A DNA stretch of 35,096 nt from an uncultured Planctomycetia bacterium (GTDB taxonomy: Bacteria > Omnitrophota > Gorgyraeia > Gorgyraeales > Gorgyraeaceae), in contig CAZWYD010000004.1 of assembly GCA_964637815.1 (NCBI GenBank), forward strand, positions 1 to 35,096. Reading direction: 5' to 3'. The notes beneath the pieces were generated by a model that made no database searches, was not told where the DNA came from, and saw only the letters and a list, made by a program, of their open reading frames with translations. Position numbers and translations under genes: made by a program. Below, in pieces: positions 4,390 to 21,209 of this stretch. Positions within the stretch are counted from its first letter, which is position 1. Each line of letters opens with the position of its first letter.

Positions 4390-4469
4390 GGTCCTTCGGC
4401 AGCTAAAATGCTCGCTTTGCTCGCATTTCTTGACGCTGCCTCAGGATCAAATTTGCTTCGCAAATTTGG
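4390..4469. repeat. tRNA 3'-associated repeat, copy 2
   Basis: CATTTCTTGACGCTGCCTCAGGATCAAATTTGCTTCGCAAATTTGG matches both ends of the 96-262 element; also shares GGTCCTTCGG. Confidence 0.75.
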
Positions 4470-4741
4470 CGTCCCTGGGCTGATTCGAACAGCCGACCCT
4501 TTGCTTAGCATCCCAGCATCAGATTACTCTGACGACCTTTCGGCTTGCTGGCTGGACTTTATCTTGGGCATCTCAGCCCCGTCGTGTAAAGTCTCTACAC
4601 TCTCCGCCGCGGCGGATAGCTCGGTATAGCCCCAAATATTCAGGGTGTCCACCGAATTAGCGACGTCCACTTCATAAGTTCAATTCCTTATGAAGGCTCC
4701 TAATTGAAGGCAAATGCTCTATCCATCTGAGCTACAGGGAC
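4467..4741 (-). tRNA. tRNA-Arg(TCT), intron-containing (exons 4707-4741 and 4467-4508)
   Basis: Joined exons give GTCCCTG-TA-GCTC-AGATGGATA-GAGC-A-TTTGC-CTT^CTAA-GCAAA-GGGTC-GGCTG-TTCGAAT-CAGCC-CAGGGAC-GCCA. Confidence 0.92.
4509..4706 (-). ncRNA. Group I self-splicing intron (IC3-like), 198 nt, no ORF
   Basis: Follows an exon U and ends in G. P1 CUU^C/GGAG with U.G pair, P2 4670-4678/4687-4695, P3 CGTCG/CGACG, P4 TTCGGT/ACCGAG, R GTGTAGAGACTTTA, S AAGATAAAGTCCA, P8 GGGC/GCCC, P9 CCAGCA/TGCTGG. Confidence 0.92.
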
Positions 4742-4974: not shown

Positions 4975-5003
4975 ATTCTATCAGCACTGTCTCAAAAAGT
5001 CAA
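4975..5003 (-). promoter_or_regulatory. sigma70-type promoter for the tRNA-Pro/tRNA-Arg cluster
   Basis: TTGACT-N17-TAGAAT with TG at the extended -10 position. Confidence 0.7.
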
Positions 5004-18604: not shown

Positions 18605-19636
18605 GCTGGATAAATACCCCTCGTAATTCCTTTTTATTTCTAGAACACTATCCCCGCCGAATTTTTCAAGCAAGGCCTGAGCTATGGTGAATGCACACAC
18701 AGCTTCACCAACAAGGGCTGCTGCAGGGACAGCGCACACGTCAGAGCGCTCTGTGGCTGCTTTGGTAGGTTCTTTCGTAGAAATATCTATTGTGTTTAGT
18801 CCCTTCATCAACGTGCTTATGGGTTTCATGTAGCCGCGCACGATTATATCCTCGCCATTTGAGATGCCGCCCTCTATGCCGCCGGCATTGTTTGTCTTTC
18901 TGTAAATGCCTTTTGCCTTGGAGTAAAATATCTCGTCGTGCACCTTTGAGCCGAGTTTTTTCGAAGATTCAATAGCGTTACCGATTTCAACTGCCTTGAT
19001 AGCTGGTATGGACATGATAGCTGAGGCAAGTCTTGCATCTAAGCGCCTGTCACTGTGTACGTAACTACCCAGGCCCACTGGTACGCCTTTTATTGCAACC
19101 TCGAATAGCCCGCCGAGCGTATCCTTTTTTTCCTTTGCGCTGTCTATTTTTTCTTTCATCTTATCTTTTGAACCCGTACCGCCTATCATTGCTACGTGAC
19201 TCGATAAGCGTATCTTAAATCCCTGTAAAAGGAGTTTGCAGACTGCGCCTATTGCAACGCGCATGGCTGTTTCCCGTGCAGAAGCACGCTCAAGCGCAGG
19301 ACGGGCATCCTTGAAGCCGTATTTTAAAATTCCGACGAGGTCTGCATGGCCAGGCCGTACATTTTTTACATCAGGGAGTTTGTCTATTGAAGCGTCATTA
19401 TTTTCTATGAGGATAGATATTGGGCTACCGATAGTGAGGCTGCCTTTTAATCCAGACAGGATCTTTGCGTGATCCTTCTCTATCTTCATTCTAGCACCAC
19501 GACCATGACCTTGCTGACGACGCTTGAGCTCATTATCTATAAAGGTCTTGTCTACCTTTAGCCCGCTAGGCATACCTTCTAAAATACCAACAAGTGCTTC
19601 ACCATGTGATTCACCAGCAGTTAAAAATCTTAACAT
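18593..19636 (-). CDS. aroC: Chorismate synthase
   Basis: MLRFLTAGESHG, RPGHAD, ERASARETA, GGISNG, RSDVCAVP. Confidence 0.97.
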   Translation of the reverse strand: MLRFLTAGESHGEALVGILEGMPSGLKVDKTFIDNELKRRQQGHGRGARMKIEKDHAKILSGLKGSLTIGSPISILIENNDASIDKLPDVKNVRPGHADLVGILKYGFKDARPALERASARETAMRVAIGAVCKLLLQGFKIRLSSHVAMIGGTGSKDKMKEKIDSAKEKKDTLGGLFEVAIKGVPVGLGSYVHSDRRLDARLASAIMSIPAIKAVEIGNAIESSKKLGSKVHDEIFYSKAKGIYRKTNNAGGIEGGISNGEDIIVRGYMKPISTLMKGLNTIDISTKEPTKAATERSDVCAVPAAALVGEAVCAFTIAQALLEKFGGDSVLEIKRNYEGYLSSLKS

Positions 19637-19650
19637 CTTGCACCTCCATA

Positions 19651-20421
19651 TCAATAAAGAAATAATAAACTTAATATTTTGTGACCCCAGATCATTGCGA
19701 CAAAGCTGGCCAACGCTATATAGGGCCCATATGGGATTATATCCTGTTTTTTCCTAAATTTCAAATACAGTCCTGCAGGCGTGCCAAAAAATGGCGCGAG
19801 AAAAAATATGAGTATTGCCATTTTCCAACCCAGAAAAGCACCCAGCATGGCCATGAGCTTTACATCTCCCCCGCCCATGCTCTCTTTATGAAATATGAGC
19901 TGGCCAACGTAACCTGTGAGATATATGAGTCCGCCACCCGCAAACATGCCCAATAGAGATTTTATAAATCCTGCCTCCCATGTAAAAGCATTATGAAGTT
20001 GCGGTATAAAGACGCTTAAGGCGATTCCTAAAACCAGTCCGCCAAGACTAATCCTGTCAGGTATGATCTGAAATTCCAGGTCGACAAAGGTTGTTACAAT
20101 AAGGCTAAATGTCACTAAGCTGTAGATCCAGAACTTCGCAGTCAGTCCAAAATAATAAAATAGTGTTAAAAATGCGAGTGCACTTATGAGTTCAACTACA
20201 AAATACCGAAAGGGTATTCTTTTTTTGCAATGCCTGCACTTGCCCATTAAAATAATATAGCTTAAGAACGGGATATTATCGTACCAAGGTATTGGCTTTT
20301 TGCAGGCGATGCATCTTGAGCCAGGCACAACAACAGACTCCTTGCGCGGCATCCTGTATATACACACGTTCAAGAAACTCCCAATCATTGAACCAAAGAT
20401 AAAGATTAGTAAATATATCAT
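19651..20421 (-). CDS. pilD: Type IV prepilin peptidase (A24)
   Basis: GSFLNVCIYRMP, two CxxC pairs, MGGGDVKL, IPYGPYI. Confidence 0.93.
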   Translation of the reverse strand: MIYLLIFIFGSMIGSFLNVCIYRMPRKESVVVPGSRCIACKKPIPWYDNIPFLSYIILMGKCRHCKKRIPFRYFVVELISALAFLTLFYYFGLTAKFWIYSLVTFSLIVTTFVDLEFQIIPDRISLGGLVLGIALSVFIPQLHNAFTWEAGFIKSLLGMFAGGGLIYLTGYVGQLIFHKESMGGGDVKLMAMLGAFLGWKMAILIFFLAPFFGTPAGLYLKFRKKQDIIPYGPYIALASFVAMIWGHKILSLLFLY

Positions 20422-21209
20422 GTTATGGCCTTTCGCATCACATCTATAGGTGCGGGTTTGCCTGTCCAGAATTCAAAGGCATGCGCGCCTTGATACAAAA
20501 GCATGCCAAGACCGCCTGTTGCACGCGGTTTTGCTGCTTTGACTAAATCTGTTTCTCTATTGTATACAACATCATAAACGAATAGATTCTTATGAAATAA
20601 TTTCTTATCTATAGGAGAACTGTCGCCCTGTTTCATACCTATGGGAGTAGCATTTACTAAGAGCTGGCAGTCCTTGATTATCGTTGGTATTTCCTTAGCG
20701 GAAATGCGCTGCACCTTGCCTGCAGATTTTATTGCATCTGGATTGCTGTCGTATGCGTATATTTTCTGAACATCCTTGGAAAGACCAGCAATAACTGCTC
20801 TGCCAGCGCCACCACAGCCTATCAAAAGCACATTTTTATCTTTATGGTCGAACTTCAGGTCCTCTTTAAGTGAAGTCAGGAATCCAGCTACATCTGTATT
20901 TGCATATTTCAGTTTATTGCCTTCTCGCTTCACTGTATTAATAGCATCTAAACCTCGGCAACCTCGTAGGTTGCCATTCTGGCAACCTACGAGGTTATCT
21001 AGTATCTGCTTTGCCCTTACTTTGTAAGGCACAGTTACATTGAATCCCAGAACATCTTTTCTGTTGAGTAAAAAATCCTCGAGCTCGGTGGGCTTTACTT
21101 CGAATTTGCGGTATTCAGCGTCGATGCCGAGTGCTTTGAACGCAGCGTTGTGCATTGCTGGAGATAAGCTATGTTTTACTGGCCAGCCAATTATACCGTA
21201 AGTGTCCAT
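20418..21209 (-). CDS. aroE: Shikimate dehydrogenase
   Basis: HSLSPAMHN, NVTVPYK, NTD, GCGGAG, NATPIGM, GLGMLLYQG. Confidence 0.95.
   Translation of the reverse strand: MDTYGIIGWPVKHSLSPAMHNAAFKALGIDAEYRKFEVKPTELEDFLLNRKDVLGFNVTVPYKVRAKQILDNLVGCQNGNLRGCRGLDAINTVKREGNKLKYANTDVAGFLTSLKEDLKFDHKDKNVLLIGCGGAGRAVIAGLSKDVQKIYAYDSNPDAIKSAGKVQRISAKEIPTIIKDCQLLVNATPIGMKQGDSSPIDKKLFHKNLFVYDVVYNRETDLVKAAKPRATGGLGMLLYQGAHAFEFWTGKPAPIDVMRKAIT
20960..20996. repeat. GTAG-type palindrome in frame inside aroE
   Basis: AACCTCGTAGGTTGCCA-TTC-TGGCAACCTACGAGGTT; 16-bp arms identical to intergenic 30339-30374. Confidence 0.9.

What the first reader, a model, noticed from the sequence alone, without database searches (positions are those of the whole stretch)
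4467..4741. Minimal 198-nt group I intron in tRNA-Arg(UCU) at position 34/35
Seen: removing 4509-4706 restores a perfect tRNA with the 7-nt loop CU-U^CU-AA. The insert starts after U, ends in G, and has P1-P9 plus R/S core sequences. Known: classic bacterial tRNA group I introns sit in Leu(UAA) after U34, in fMet(CAU), in Azoarcus Ile(CAU) (about 205 nt, a model minimal ribozyme) and in Agrobacterium Arg(CCU). I do not recall an Arg(UCU) 34/35 example. Inference: the 5' exon ends CUU and the guide is GAG, as in Leu(UAA) introns, so it may have moved to a new tRNA host by reverse splicing. Decoding of AGA codons, common in this AT-rich DNA, could depend on splicing, and standard tRNA finders may miss the gene.
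Basis: partly seen in the sequence, partly recalled or inferred. Interest (0 to 1): 0.85.

Follow-up and report, generated by a model that had tools for sequence, protein, structure and literature searches.

The report
Self-splicing intron splitting an arginine tRNA
A 198-base group I intron interrupts the anticodon of the only arginine tRNA found here for the bacterium's commonest arginine codons; it is real and standard gene finders miss it, but it is an ordinary member of a widespread intron family.

Summary
Observation confirmed. On the minus strand, 4741-4467 is a tRNA-Arg(UCU) gene split between U34 and C35 by a 198-nt insert (4706-4509). Taking it out gives a perfect 77-nt tRNA with encoded CCA. 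A same-genus genome (G001) carries the uninterrupted gene at the syntenic Pro-Arg-His site, which fixes the junction.

The insert is a group I intron: P1 with the U.G wobble, P2-P9, the P3/P7 pseudoknot, R/S elements and omega-G. On 24 ORF-less homologues, 94.9% of cells pair (34-46% when slid) and 41 of 60 pairs show compensatory changes. Rfam Intron_gpI does not detect it. Default ARAGORN and the Rfam tRNA model miss the gene.

It is not rare. I collected 43 distinct Arg(UCU) 34/35 introns (191-667 nt) under seven phylum-level labels. Long forms carry a PD-(D/E)XK endonuclease ORF in P6, and the window copy is an ORF-less derivative. The host is an Omnitrophota genome. AGA+AGG make up 64% of its Arg codons, and no second decoder was found in the 74%-complete assembly.

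Splicing is inferred; no RNA data exist. The nearest other-host relatives are Lys(UUU) 34/35 introns, not the single Leu(UAA) intron sampled. A 2020 preprint lists 21 tRNA-intron classes in a table I could not see, so novelty is modest.

The parts
4707..4741 (-). 5' exon: tRNA-Arg(UCU) positions 1-34 (acceptor, D arm with A20, 5' anticodon stem, C32 U33 U34)
   Evidence: ARAGORN on the joined exons. 100% identical to the 5' half of the intronless gene in G001.
4509..4706 (-). Group I intron, 198 nt, no ORF
   Evidence: Family covariance model R1 scores 215.8 bits (the window is in its training set). Structure counts. Fold z-score -3.95.
4467..4508 (-). 3' exon: C35 U36 A37 A38, 3' anticodon stem, variable loop, T arm, acceptor, discriminator G, encoded CCA (4469-4467)
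4697..4709 (-). P1: exon C-U-U (4709-4707) plus intron C (4706) pair with the guide G-G-A-G (4700-4697); U34 (4707) makes the U.G wobble with 4699. The bases just 5' of the guide (4703-4701, with G4700 shared) can pair with the first 3'-exon bases CUAA as P10.
   Evidence: U.G wobble in 24 of 24 sequences; the two pairs outside it are invariant. RNAalifold finds P1 on its own. P10 is read from the sequence and was not counted.
4670..4695 (-). P2: 9-bp hairpin with an 8-nt loop
   Evidence: 9 of 9 pairs have changes on both sides; 98.6% of cells paired.
4661..4665 (-). P3, 5' strand (pairs with 4584-4580)
   Evidence: 4 of 5 pairs compensatory; 100% paired.
4620..4656 (-). P4 (4656-4651 with 4625-4620) enclosing P5 (4645-4641 with 4634-4630). 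J4/5 and J5/4 hold invariant A residues.
   Evidence: P4 has 4 of 6 and P5 has 3 of 5 pairs compensatory. Invariant A67 and A88 of the alignment.
4600..4619 (-). P6 hairpin; in long relatives the endonuclease ORF sits in this loop
   Evidence: 7 of 7 pairs compensatory. ORF position read.
4588..4595 (-). P7, 5' strand inside the R element (G, bulged A, GACUUU); pairs with 4560-4554
   Evidence: 99.4% paired; 5 pairs invariant and 1 compensatory (U-A to A-U in 5 sequences).
4580..4584 (-). P3, 3' strand
4566..4579 (-). P8 hairpin (4 bp, 6-nt loop)
   Evidence: 3 of 4 pairs compensatory; 100% paired.
4554..4565 (-). S element: J8/7 (AAGAU) plus the P7 3' strand (AAAGUCC)
   Evidence: Nearly invariant columns. 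It is part of the pattern that retrieved group I introns.
4512..4551 (-). P9 (4551-4546 with 4518-4512) carrying two hairpins: P9a (4544-4535, GAAA loop) and P9b (4532-4519)
   Evidence: P9 has 3 of 6, P9a 3 of 3 and P9b 4 of 4 pairs compensatory. P9a is only 71.8% paired.
4509..4509 (-). Omega-G, the last intron base
   Evidence: Invariant column G206.

Best explanation
Minus strand 4741-4467 is the gene for tRNA-Arg(UCU) of an Omnitrophota bacterium. It is interrupted between U34 and C35 by a 198-nt ORF-less group I intron (4706-4509).

Inferred mechanism:
- The precursor, probably co-transcribed with the upstream tRNA-Pro, folds into the P1-P9 core.
- A free guanosine bound in P7 attacks the bond after U34, which sits in the U.G wobble of P1.
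- Omega-G (4509) then takes the G site. The 3' exon start CUAA pairs with the 5' part of the guide (P10), helped by the anticodon stem.
- The exons are ligated to a 77-nt tRNA that reads AGA and AGG.

The intron belongs to a widespread lineage at this exact site. Its long members carry a PD-(D/E)XK homing endonuclease in P6 that spreads the intron to intronless alleles. The window copy has lost, or never had, that ORF, so it persists only because it splices.

Shown here: the anatomy, the junction, the covariation, the presence/absence polymorphism and the endonuclease family.
Inferred: catalysis, self-sufficiency of splicing, and essentiality.
For: - Junction: a perfect tRNA-Arg(tct) results after removing exactly 4509-4706. 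The intronless syntenic orthologue in same-genus G001 equals the predicted ligated exons.
- Structure: all 60 proposed pairs are standard in the window copy.
- Independent prediction: RNAalifold predicts P1, P2, P3, P4, P5, P6, P8, P9 and P9b on its own, with 40 of 57 pairs compensatory.
- Covariation, with P7 added as a pseudoknot: 94.9% of 1435 cells pair against 34.2-46.1% when partners are slid by 1-3 columns. 41 of 60 pairs have double changes. 0 of 500 shuffles reach any of the five measures.
- Splice-site signatures: the U.G wobble occurs in 24 of 24 sequences and omega-G is invariant.
- Link to Rfam: sub-threshold but full-length Intron_gpI matches to family members L078 (31.4 bits, E 3e-4) and L096 (27.3 bits).
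- Endonuclease: 12 of 12 tested ORFs from long family members hit PF11645, with E from 9e-40 to 4e-11. A profile of 10 of them hits only PDB 2OST_A, at E 9.9e-8.
- Polymorphism: among 401 phylum genomes, 40 carry the intron and 28 carry abutting exons (hand tally).
- Demand for the tRNA: AGA and AGG are 32.9% and 30.7% of Arg codons. No other Arg(UCU) or Arg(CCU) gene occurs among the 23 tRNAs found.
Against: - Rfam Intron_gpI gives no match at this site at the gathering score, at E<=10 on 501 nt, at E<=10 on 226 nt, or in the genome-wide scan that found two other introns.
- None of 12 other family loci reaches the 50-bit cut-off.
- No RNA run holds the locus, so no spliced junction or excised intron has been seen.
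- The assembly is 73.8% complete with only 23 tRNAs, so a second intronless copy cannot be excluded.
- P1 has only 4 bp.
- P9a pairs in only 71.8% of cells.
- The minimum-free-energy fold uses an alternative pairing of the conserved J2/3 bases with the P7 3' strand.
- The sequences are related to one another, so the shuffle control overstates significance.
Confidence: 0.9

Rival explanations
1. The intron is a decayed relic and the tRNA gene is a pseudogene. AGA/AGG would then be read by another tRNA gene lying in the unassembled quarter of the genome.
For: The assembly is 73.8% complete and holds only 23 tRNA genes. There is no endonuclease ORF. There is no Rfam hit. There is no RNA evidence.
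Against: All 60 core pairs are standard in this copy. The exons are intact, and differ from the intronless orthologue only by a compensated T-stem pair. Twenty-four ORF-less copies keep the fold through compensatory changes, which indicates selection for splicing. Relatives checked that carry the intron show a single Arg(UCU) locus at the syntenic site.
Confidence: 0.05
2. The intron is genuine but not self-sufficient. With a 4-bp P1 and few peripheral elements, it would need a host protein or chaperone to splice in the cell.
For: The core is very compact (191-205 nt in ORF-less members). P9a is poorly conserved. A competing J2/3-P7 pairing appears in the minimum-free-energy fold. Hausner et al. 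2014 (PMC3984707, passages seen) describe protein-assisted splicing for some group I introns.
Against: No maturase-like ORF lies in or beside the intron. From recall, the known small bacterial tRNA introns such as those of Azoarcus and Anabaena self-splice in vitro. The anticodon stem holds the exons together, which compensates for a short P1/P10.
Confidence: 0.15
3. The insert is another kind of mobile element (IStron, MITE, group II fragment) or an assembly chimera, not an intron.
For: No curated RNA family matches it.
Against: The group I fold is supported by covariation. Contigs of three runs cover it with 0 differences. Homologues lie at the identical site in 40 of 401 phylum genomes and under six other phylum-level labels. 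No transposase ORF is present. There is no match in the phage collection.
Confidence: 0.01

Closest known systems
[quoted passage not shown]
   Same: Same position in the anticodon loop (after loop nucleotide 3, that is U34/35). Same 5' exon end CUU with a U.G wobble. The guide contains GAG. Omega-G is present, and the architecture is compact and ORF-less.
   Different: Different host tRNA (Arg UCU; 3' exon CUAA instead of AAAA). The one Leu(UAA) intron in my sample (L138, Melioribacteraceae, 191 nt) scores 102.7 bits on the family model, against 125-230 bits for Arg(UCU) members, and lies on the other side of the tree. No cyanobacterial Leu intron was available for comparison.
tRNA-Arg(CCU) group I intron of Agrobacterium and other alphaproteobacteria ('Arg.5Ug')
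   Same: A bacterial arginine tRNA interrupted in the anticodon loop by a small group I intron. It is sporadically distributed; only the title of Paquin et al. 1999 was seen, in a reference list.
   Different: Different isoacceptor (CCU, not UCU). Different site: after loop nucleotide 5, by the class name in Williams 2020, not after nucleotide 3. Its 5' exon end therefore differs, and so should its guide (not checked here). No sequence was available to compare.
Azoarcus tRNA-Ile(CAU) intron ('Ile2.5Ug'), the model small ribozyme
   Same: A bacterial tRNA anticodon-loop intron of about 200 nt with P2 and P9 as the only peripheral elements. Its size of about 205 nt is recalled, not checked here.
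   Different: Different host and site. The family here reaches 191 nt (L158, L162). No sequence comparison was possible with these tools.
Synechocystis tRNA-fMet intron with the homing endonuclease I-Ssp6803I (PDB 2OST; the link between name and entry is recalled)
   Same: Long members of the Arg(UCU) family carry an ORF of the same Pfam family (PF11645; 12 of 12 tested). Their profile hits only 2OST_A (E 9.9e-8).
   Different: The window copy has no ORF. The host tRNA and site differ ('fMet.2Ug').
tRNA-Lys(UUU) 34/35 introns of Microbacteriaceae and a Planctomycetaceae genome
   Same: Same CUU^ site. They are the best non-Arg scores on the family model (90.9-108.6 bits). They nest beside the Arg(UCU) introns L183 and L186 with 99/97 and 100/99 support.
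   Different: Different host tRNA. For the Microbacteriaceae copies an Asn(GUU) 33/34 junction also fits U-1/omega-G. I could not find whether this class is in print.

Membership tests
Group I intron | P1 helix in which the last 5'-exon base is a U in a U.G wobble with the internal guide | tested here: met
   U34 (4707) pairs with G4699. U.G occurs in 24 of 24 aligned sequences and the flanking pairs are conserved.
Group I intron | Terminal omega-G | tested here: met
   The base at 4509 is G. The column is invariant in 24 of 24 sequences. All 41 introns end in G, although the search pattern itself required a G there.
Group I intron | Conserved core P3-P8 with the P3/P7 pseudoknot, in the canonical order | tested here: met
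   94.9% of cells pair against 34-46% when slid. P3 has 4 of 5, P4 4 of 6, P6 7 of 7, P8 3 of 4 and P7 1 of 7 pairs compensatory; the other P7 pairs are invariant.
Group I intron | R and S conserved elements (J6/7-P7 and J8/7-P7), with a bulged base and G-C pairs in P7 for guanosine binding | tested here: met
   The AGAGACU...AAGAUAAAGUCC motifs are invariant or nearly so. The same pattern retrieves Rfam-positive and tRNA- or rRNA-borne introns elsewhere. The role of P7 in G binding is inferred from the family, not tested.
Group I intron | Match to Rfam RF00028 Intron_gpI at the gathering score (50 bits) | tested here: not met
   No match at all at this site. 0 of 12 relatives reach 50 bits and 5 of 12 give 20.9-31.4 bits. 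Williams 2020 notes that none of the 12 Rfam seeds is bacterial. This is a failure of the model's reach, not of a structural feature.
Group I intron | Guanosine- and Mg-dependent two-step splicing | not testable with these tools
   No RNA run holds the locus.
Classical bacterial tRNA introns (subgroup IC3: Leu.3Ug, Arg.5Ug, fMet.2Ug, Ile2.5Ug) | The host tRNA and insertion site are one of the four catalogued classes | tested here: not met
   The site is Arg(UCU) after loop nucleotide 3. Williams 2020 names the four classes, and this is none of them.
Extended catalogue of 21 tRNA-intron classes (Williams 2020) | The class is listed in Table 1 / Fig. 3 of the preprint | not testable with these tools
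   The table and figure are held as images only, and supplements are closed. The string 'Arg.3Ug' occurs in no held text.
Subgroup IC3 | Peripheral architecture of IC3 (P2 present, simple P5, no P5abc, no P7.1/7.2); these criteria are recalled | tested here: inconclusive
   The fold has P2, a simple P5 hairpin and a branched P9, with no extra domains. No reference IC3 alignment was available for a formal test.
Mobile (homing) group I intron | Intron-encoded homing endonuclease | tested here: not met
   The longest ORFs overlapping the window copy are 44-105 aa, none inside P6, and they were not compared with any protein family. Relatives meet the feature: 12 of 12 tested ORFs are PF11645.

The most novel reading that the evidence does not exclude
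The Arg(UCU) 34/35 introns may be a lineage of 191-205-nt ribozymes that is absent from Rfam's reach and uncatalogued in print. They would be among the smallest natural group I introns. The lineage would have changed host more than once between tRNAs whose anticodon loops begin CUU (Arg UCU, Lys UUU), using one guide sequence. In reduced Omnitrophota genomes, reading of the two commonest arginine codons would hang on an RNA-catalysed step.
Probability: 0.3. Interest if true: 0.6.

Novelty: new member of a known kind. Interest (0 to 1): 0.4.

Why it matters
- Annotation. Default ARAGORN and the Rfam tRNA and Intron_gpI models all miss this gene. By its authors' own statement, tRNAscan-SE is not designed to detect group I introns (PMC8450103, passage seen). 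Genomes like this one will therefore be scored as lacking the decoder of AGA/AGG, which make up 64% of Arg codons here, and that can be misread as a tRNA loss or a code change. At least 40 of 401 sampled Omnitrophota genomes are affected.
- Ribozyme biology. The family offers dozens of natural 191-205-nt variants of a complete group I core with rich covariation. That is useful for structure and folding work now done on a few model introns.
- Evolution. Lys(UUU) introns nest among Arg(UCU) introns, which is direct sequence evidence for a change of host tRNA at a shared CUU site.

None of this changes the known picture of bacterial tRNA introns; it extends it.

Tried and rejected
- Rfam scans gave no Intron_gpI hit at the site, at the gathering score or at E<=10 on 35 kb, 501 nt and 226 nt. 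The weak hits listed there (YrlA, AS-pc01 and others) are chance or are parts of tRNA/P2.
- ARAGORN's Ser(gct) call in intron mode was rejected. The tRNA has a 5-nt variable loop and A20 (the identity rules are recalled), the junction needs U-1 and omega-G, and the intronless orthologue reads UCU.
- ARAGORN's tRNA-Gly with a 1059-nt intron on contig C17 looks spurious and was not followed.
- I considered a J2/3 (UGGAC) pairing with the P7 3' strand as an alternative helix. In alignment A1 the middle G changes in 4 of 24 sequences while its would-be partner never varies, so I treat it as unpaired or as a folding alternative only.
- Protein-coding readings were rejected. Only 44-105-aa ORFs overlap the region, and none was tested against a protein family.
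- There is no match in the phage collection.
- Sequencing runs: six RNA runs share only 4-6% of the sampled words. The DNA contigs show presence only.
- The two pattern searches meant to count intron-bearing against intronless alleles returned 0 of 401, even in G000. My pattern was out of register by one base in the T arm. They are void and cost 800 of the 2000-genome budget. I replaced them by a hand tally.
- Mohanta et al. 2017 (PMC5733544, passages seen) report 'group I introns' of 22-49 nt in cyanobacterial tRNA-Arg(ACG), Gly and Lys. These are far too short for a group I core and concern another isoacceptor, so they are not prior art.
- Ten literature searches (one search was a syntax error) found no text naming an Arg(UCU) group I intron.
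- Paquin et al. 1997 and 1999 are not held.

Full report
**What is in the window.** On the minus strand, the window carries a tRNA cluster: Pro(UGG) 4893-4816, His(GUG) 3501-3428 and Arg(UCG) 336-260. Between Pro and His, default ARAGORN and the Rfam tRNA model report nothing. Even so, 4741-4707 reads as the first 34 positions of a tRNA, and 4508-4467 reads as the rest, with an encoded CCA. I joined the two pieces inside a script. ARAGORN then returned a perfect 77-nt tRNA-Arg(tct) with the loop CU-UCU-AA. The 198 nt between them (4706-4509) follow a U and end in G. ARAGORN in intron mode finds the split gene, but it places the junction one base early and calls it Ser(gct). The short variable loop, A20/C35 and the orthologue described next all argue against that call.

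**The junction is fixed by an intronless orthologue.** The window is contig C4 of a 1.33-Mb assembly of 141 contigs, 73.8% complete. G001 is a same-genus genome, 97% complete, whose flanks are 87.6% identical. It has Pro-Arg(UCU)-His in the same order, and its Arg gene is uninterrupted. That gene equals the predicted ligated exons except for one compensated pair in the T stem. G003 and G008, of the same family, show the same. Contigs from three public DNA runs of two studies cover the exon-intron-exon stretch with no differences. One of these runs may be the source sample.

**It is a group I intron.**
- BLAST against relatives found homologues at the same CCUU^...G^CUAAGC site in the same tRNA cluster.
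- A wider search, described below, raised the set to 41 distinct introns of 191-667 nt, plus two with a different anticodon stem (L092 and L105).
- I aligned the 24 introns of at most 260 nt, each with 8 exon bases on either side (A1).
- RNAalifold, which knew nothing of my model, returned P1, P2, P3, P4, P5, P6, P8, P9 and P9b plus the anticodon stem. 40 of its 57 pairs were compensatory.
- My hand-drawn structure adds P7 as a pseudoknot. All 60 of its pairs are standard in the window copy.
- Across the alignment, 94.9% of 1435 cells pair, against 34.2-46.1% when the 3' partners are slid by 1-3 columns. 41 pairs carry changes on both sides. None of 500 shuffles reaches the observed values.
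- The sequences are related to each other, so the shuffle figure is generous. The slide control and the per-helix counts are the stronger evidence: P2 9 of 9, P3 4 of 5, P4 4 of 6, P6 7 of 7, P8 3 of 4, P9b 4 of 4.
- The splice-site U.G wobble is present in 24 of 24 sequences. Omega-G and the R/S motifs are invariant.
- The single-sequence fold has a z-score of -3.95.

**Rfam does not see it.** Intron_gpI gives no match at this site at any setting tried. The genome-wide scan with that model found two other introns at 87.8 and 93.6 bits and three weaker matches, but not this one. Of 12 other family loci, none reaches the 50-bit cut-off. Five give 20.9-31.4 bits: L078, L096, L011, L018 and L012. 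These weak full-length matches link the family to the curated model. Williams 2020 remarks that none of the Rfam seeds is bacterial.

**Who carries it.** Locus L011 (G057, same class as G000) is identical to a named record of a Candidatus Omnitrophica bacterium (L152). The host phylum is therefore Omnitrophota.
- I tallied by hand the 401 phylum genomes searched with the 277-nt precursor. In 40 genomes, counting G000, a match runs into the intron. In 28 the two exon matches abut on one contig, which marks an intronless allele. In 43 only one exon half matches, and 290 have no match at E<=1e-6.
- Within G000's own family, G018 and G023 and G024 have the intron. G001, G003, G008, G012, G022, G028 and G029 do not. 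The intron is therefore optional even within a genus.
Eighteen of these are Arg(UCU) 34/35 introns, under labels of Omnitrophota, Acidobacteriota, Bacteroidota, Elusimicrobiota, Chloroflexota, Planctomycetia and 'Patescibacteria group'.

**Mobility.**
- Fourteen family members exceed 320 nt.
- Twelve of their ORFs, all lying in the P6 loop, were tested, and all twelve match Pfam PF11645 (PD-(D/E)XK endonuclease). E-values run from 9e-40 to 4e-11. Two (L090, L136) are C-terminal fragments.
- L054 has no ORF, and L182 (99 aa) was not tested.
- A profile of ten of these ORFs hits one PDB sequence only, 2OST_A, at E 9.9e-8. From recall, that entry is I-Ssp6803I, the endonuclease of the Synechocystis tRNA-fMet intron.
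- The window copy has no such ORF. It is a minimal derivative that can no longer home by itself.

**Relation to introns in other tRNAs.**
- A covariance model of A1 (R1) scores Arg(UCU) members that were not used to build it at 124.7-197.4 bits: L054, L105, L092 and the truncated L082.
- The next best scores go to introns in other hosts:
  - Lys(UUU) 34/35 in Agromyces and Microbacterium (102.5-108.6 bits) and in a Planctomycetaceae genome (90.9 bits);
  - Leu(UAA) 34/35 in a Melioribacteraceae genome (102.7 bits, 191 nt);
  - a Clostridia group in Asn(GUU) at 35/36 (93.8-106.6 bits).
- For the Microbacteriaceae copies, an Asn(GUU) 33/34 junction fits equally well.
- On a maximum-likelihood tree of the model-fitted alignment, the Lys introns nest beside Arg(UCU) introns L183 and L186. 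The AU test rejects a single Arg(UCU) clade (p 0.007).
- I repeated this with an independent MAFFT alignment and with nine long-branch rows left out: L076, L130, L092, L119, L138, L105, L134, L103 and L113. The nesting holds (99/97 and 100/99) and the AU test gives p 0.009.
- The alignments have only about 199 columns, the trees are unrooted, and the second test was run after I had seen the first tree.
- I conclude that the host tRNA changed at least once between Arg(UCU) and Lys(UUU), two loops that share the CUU target of the guide. I do not conclude a direction.

**Does decoding depend on it?** In 625 long ORFs of G000 (279,178 codons), AGA is 16.0 and AGG 15.0 per thousand codons. Together they are 63.6% of Arg codons. 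Genome G+C is 41.4%. ARAGORN finds 23 tRNAs in the assembly. The Arg tRNAs among them are ACG and UCG only. The split gene is thus the only AGA/AGG decoder seen, but a quarter of the genome is missing. No RNA run holds the locus, so splicing itself is inferred.

**What is in print.**
- Williams 2020 (bioRxiv 10.1101/2020.01.27.920355; whole main text read) states that databases list four bacterial tRNA classes: Leu.3Ug, Arg.5Ug, fMet.2Ug and Ile2.5Ug. It extends these to 21 with a new model. The table and figure that name the 17 new classes are held as images only, and supplements are closed.
- By that paper's naming, our case would be 'Arg.3Ug'. The string occurs in no held text.
- The intron is common, and some members reach the paper's 18-20-bit screening threshold. 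I therefore think it more likely than not that the class is in that table.
- The tRNAscan-SE 2.0 paper (passage seen) says the program was not designed to detect group I introns.
- The other papers checked were seen as passages only: Hausner 2014; tRNADB-CE 2008; Mohanta 2017; and the Bartonella sRNA paper (PMC7717549), which concerns Arg(CCU). None mentions Arg(UCU).

**Verdict.** The observation and its main interpretation are right. This is a genuine, compact, ORF-less group I intron at 34/35 of tRNA-Arg(UCU), one of many at that site. It is a new member of a known kind and is of moderate interest, mainly for annotation and as a source of small natural ribozymes.

Noticed in passing
G000 contig C69:5901-6231 (minus strand; locus L003): The same genome has a tRNA-Lys(UUU) gene split after U33 by a 254-nt group I intron. 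Rfam detects this one well (87.8 bits), but it scores only 17 bits on the Arg(UCU) family model, so it belongs to a different lineage.
   Followed up: partly
G000 contig C118:348-657 (minus strand; locus L002): A tRNA-Asn(GUU) gene is split between positions 35 and 36 by a 234-nt group I intron (Rfam 92.6-93.6 bits). ARAGORN mislabels it Thr(tgt). With the Arg and Lys genes, at least 3 tRNA genes in this 74%-complete genome carry group I introns (23 tRNA genes were found by default ARAGORN, which missed all three).
   Followed up: partly
G000 contig C14, about 19400-20900 (locus L005 1460-2937): The 23S rRNA gene has an insertion of about 1.5 kb between Rfam LSU model positions 2636 and 2652. 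It gives two weak Intron_gpI matches (25.6 and 17 bits) and is probably one or two rRNA introns.
   Followed up: no
L149 (record titled 'Patescibacteria group bacterium', contig of 3536 bases): Its 201-nt Arg(UCU) intron is the nearest relative of the intron of G024, which is in the family of G000 (support 100/98), and of the window's intron. Either the small contig is mis-binned or the intron moved between phyla.
   Followed up: no
window 4666-4669 with 4553-4556 (minus strand): The conserved J2/3 bases UGGA are complementary to the P7 3' strand, and the minimum-free-energy fold uses that pairing instead of P7. Four of 24 sequences break it without compensation. It may be a folding trap or a switch.
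   Followed up: partly
L090 (6316-6588) and L136 (6929-7186): Two long Arg(UCU) introns hold only the C-terminal 70-80 residues of the PF11645 endonuclease as an open frame. These appear to be decaying homing endonuclease genes, as expected on the way to ORF-less forms like the window's.
   Followed up: partly
L046, L060, L079, L106, L137 (Microbacterium and Agromyces, including cultured strains): A tRNA gene is split by a 247-262-nt group I intron. Its junction fits both Lys(UUU) 34/35 and Asn(GUU) 33/34. The Planctomycetaceae relative L119 fits only Lys(UUU). Cultured hosts would allow a direct splicing test.
   Followed up: partly
run X3, loose end at window 4706: A contig of another organism in the same marine sample carries an uninterrupted tRNA-Arg(UCU) whose 5' half has 4 differences in 41 bases from the window's. 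It is a potential intronless target in the same community.
   Followed up: no
window 4975-5003 (minus strand) and 4440-4466: A promoter-like site (TTGACT, 17-nt spacer, TAGAAT, with TG) lies upstream of tRNA-Pro. A short A/T-rich hairpin follows the CCA of tRNA-Arg. Pro and Arg may form one transcript, but the number of promoter-like sites does not exceed that in shuffled sequence (4 against 3.2).
   Followed up: no
L085, L103, L138: tRNA introns of about 184-191 nt in other hosts (Met CAU; an Omnitrophota tRNA whose anticodon call depends on the junction chosen, Thr(cgt) or Leu(caa); and Leu UAA) show that sizes below 200 nt are common among bacterial tRNA introns in current genome collections.
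   Followed up: no
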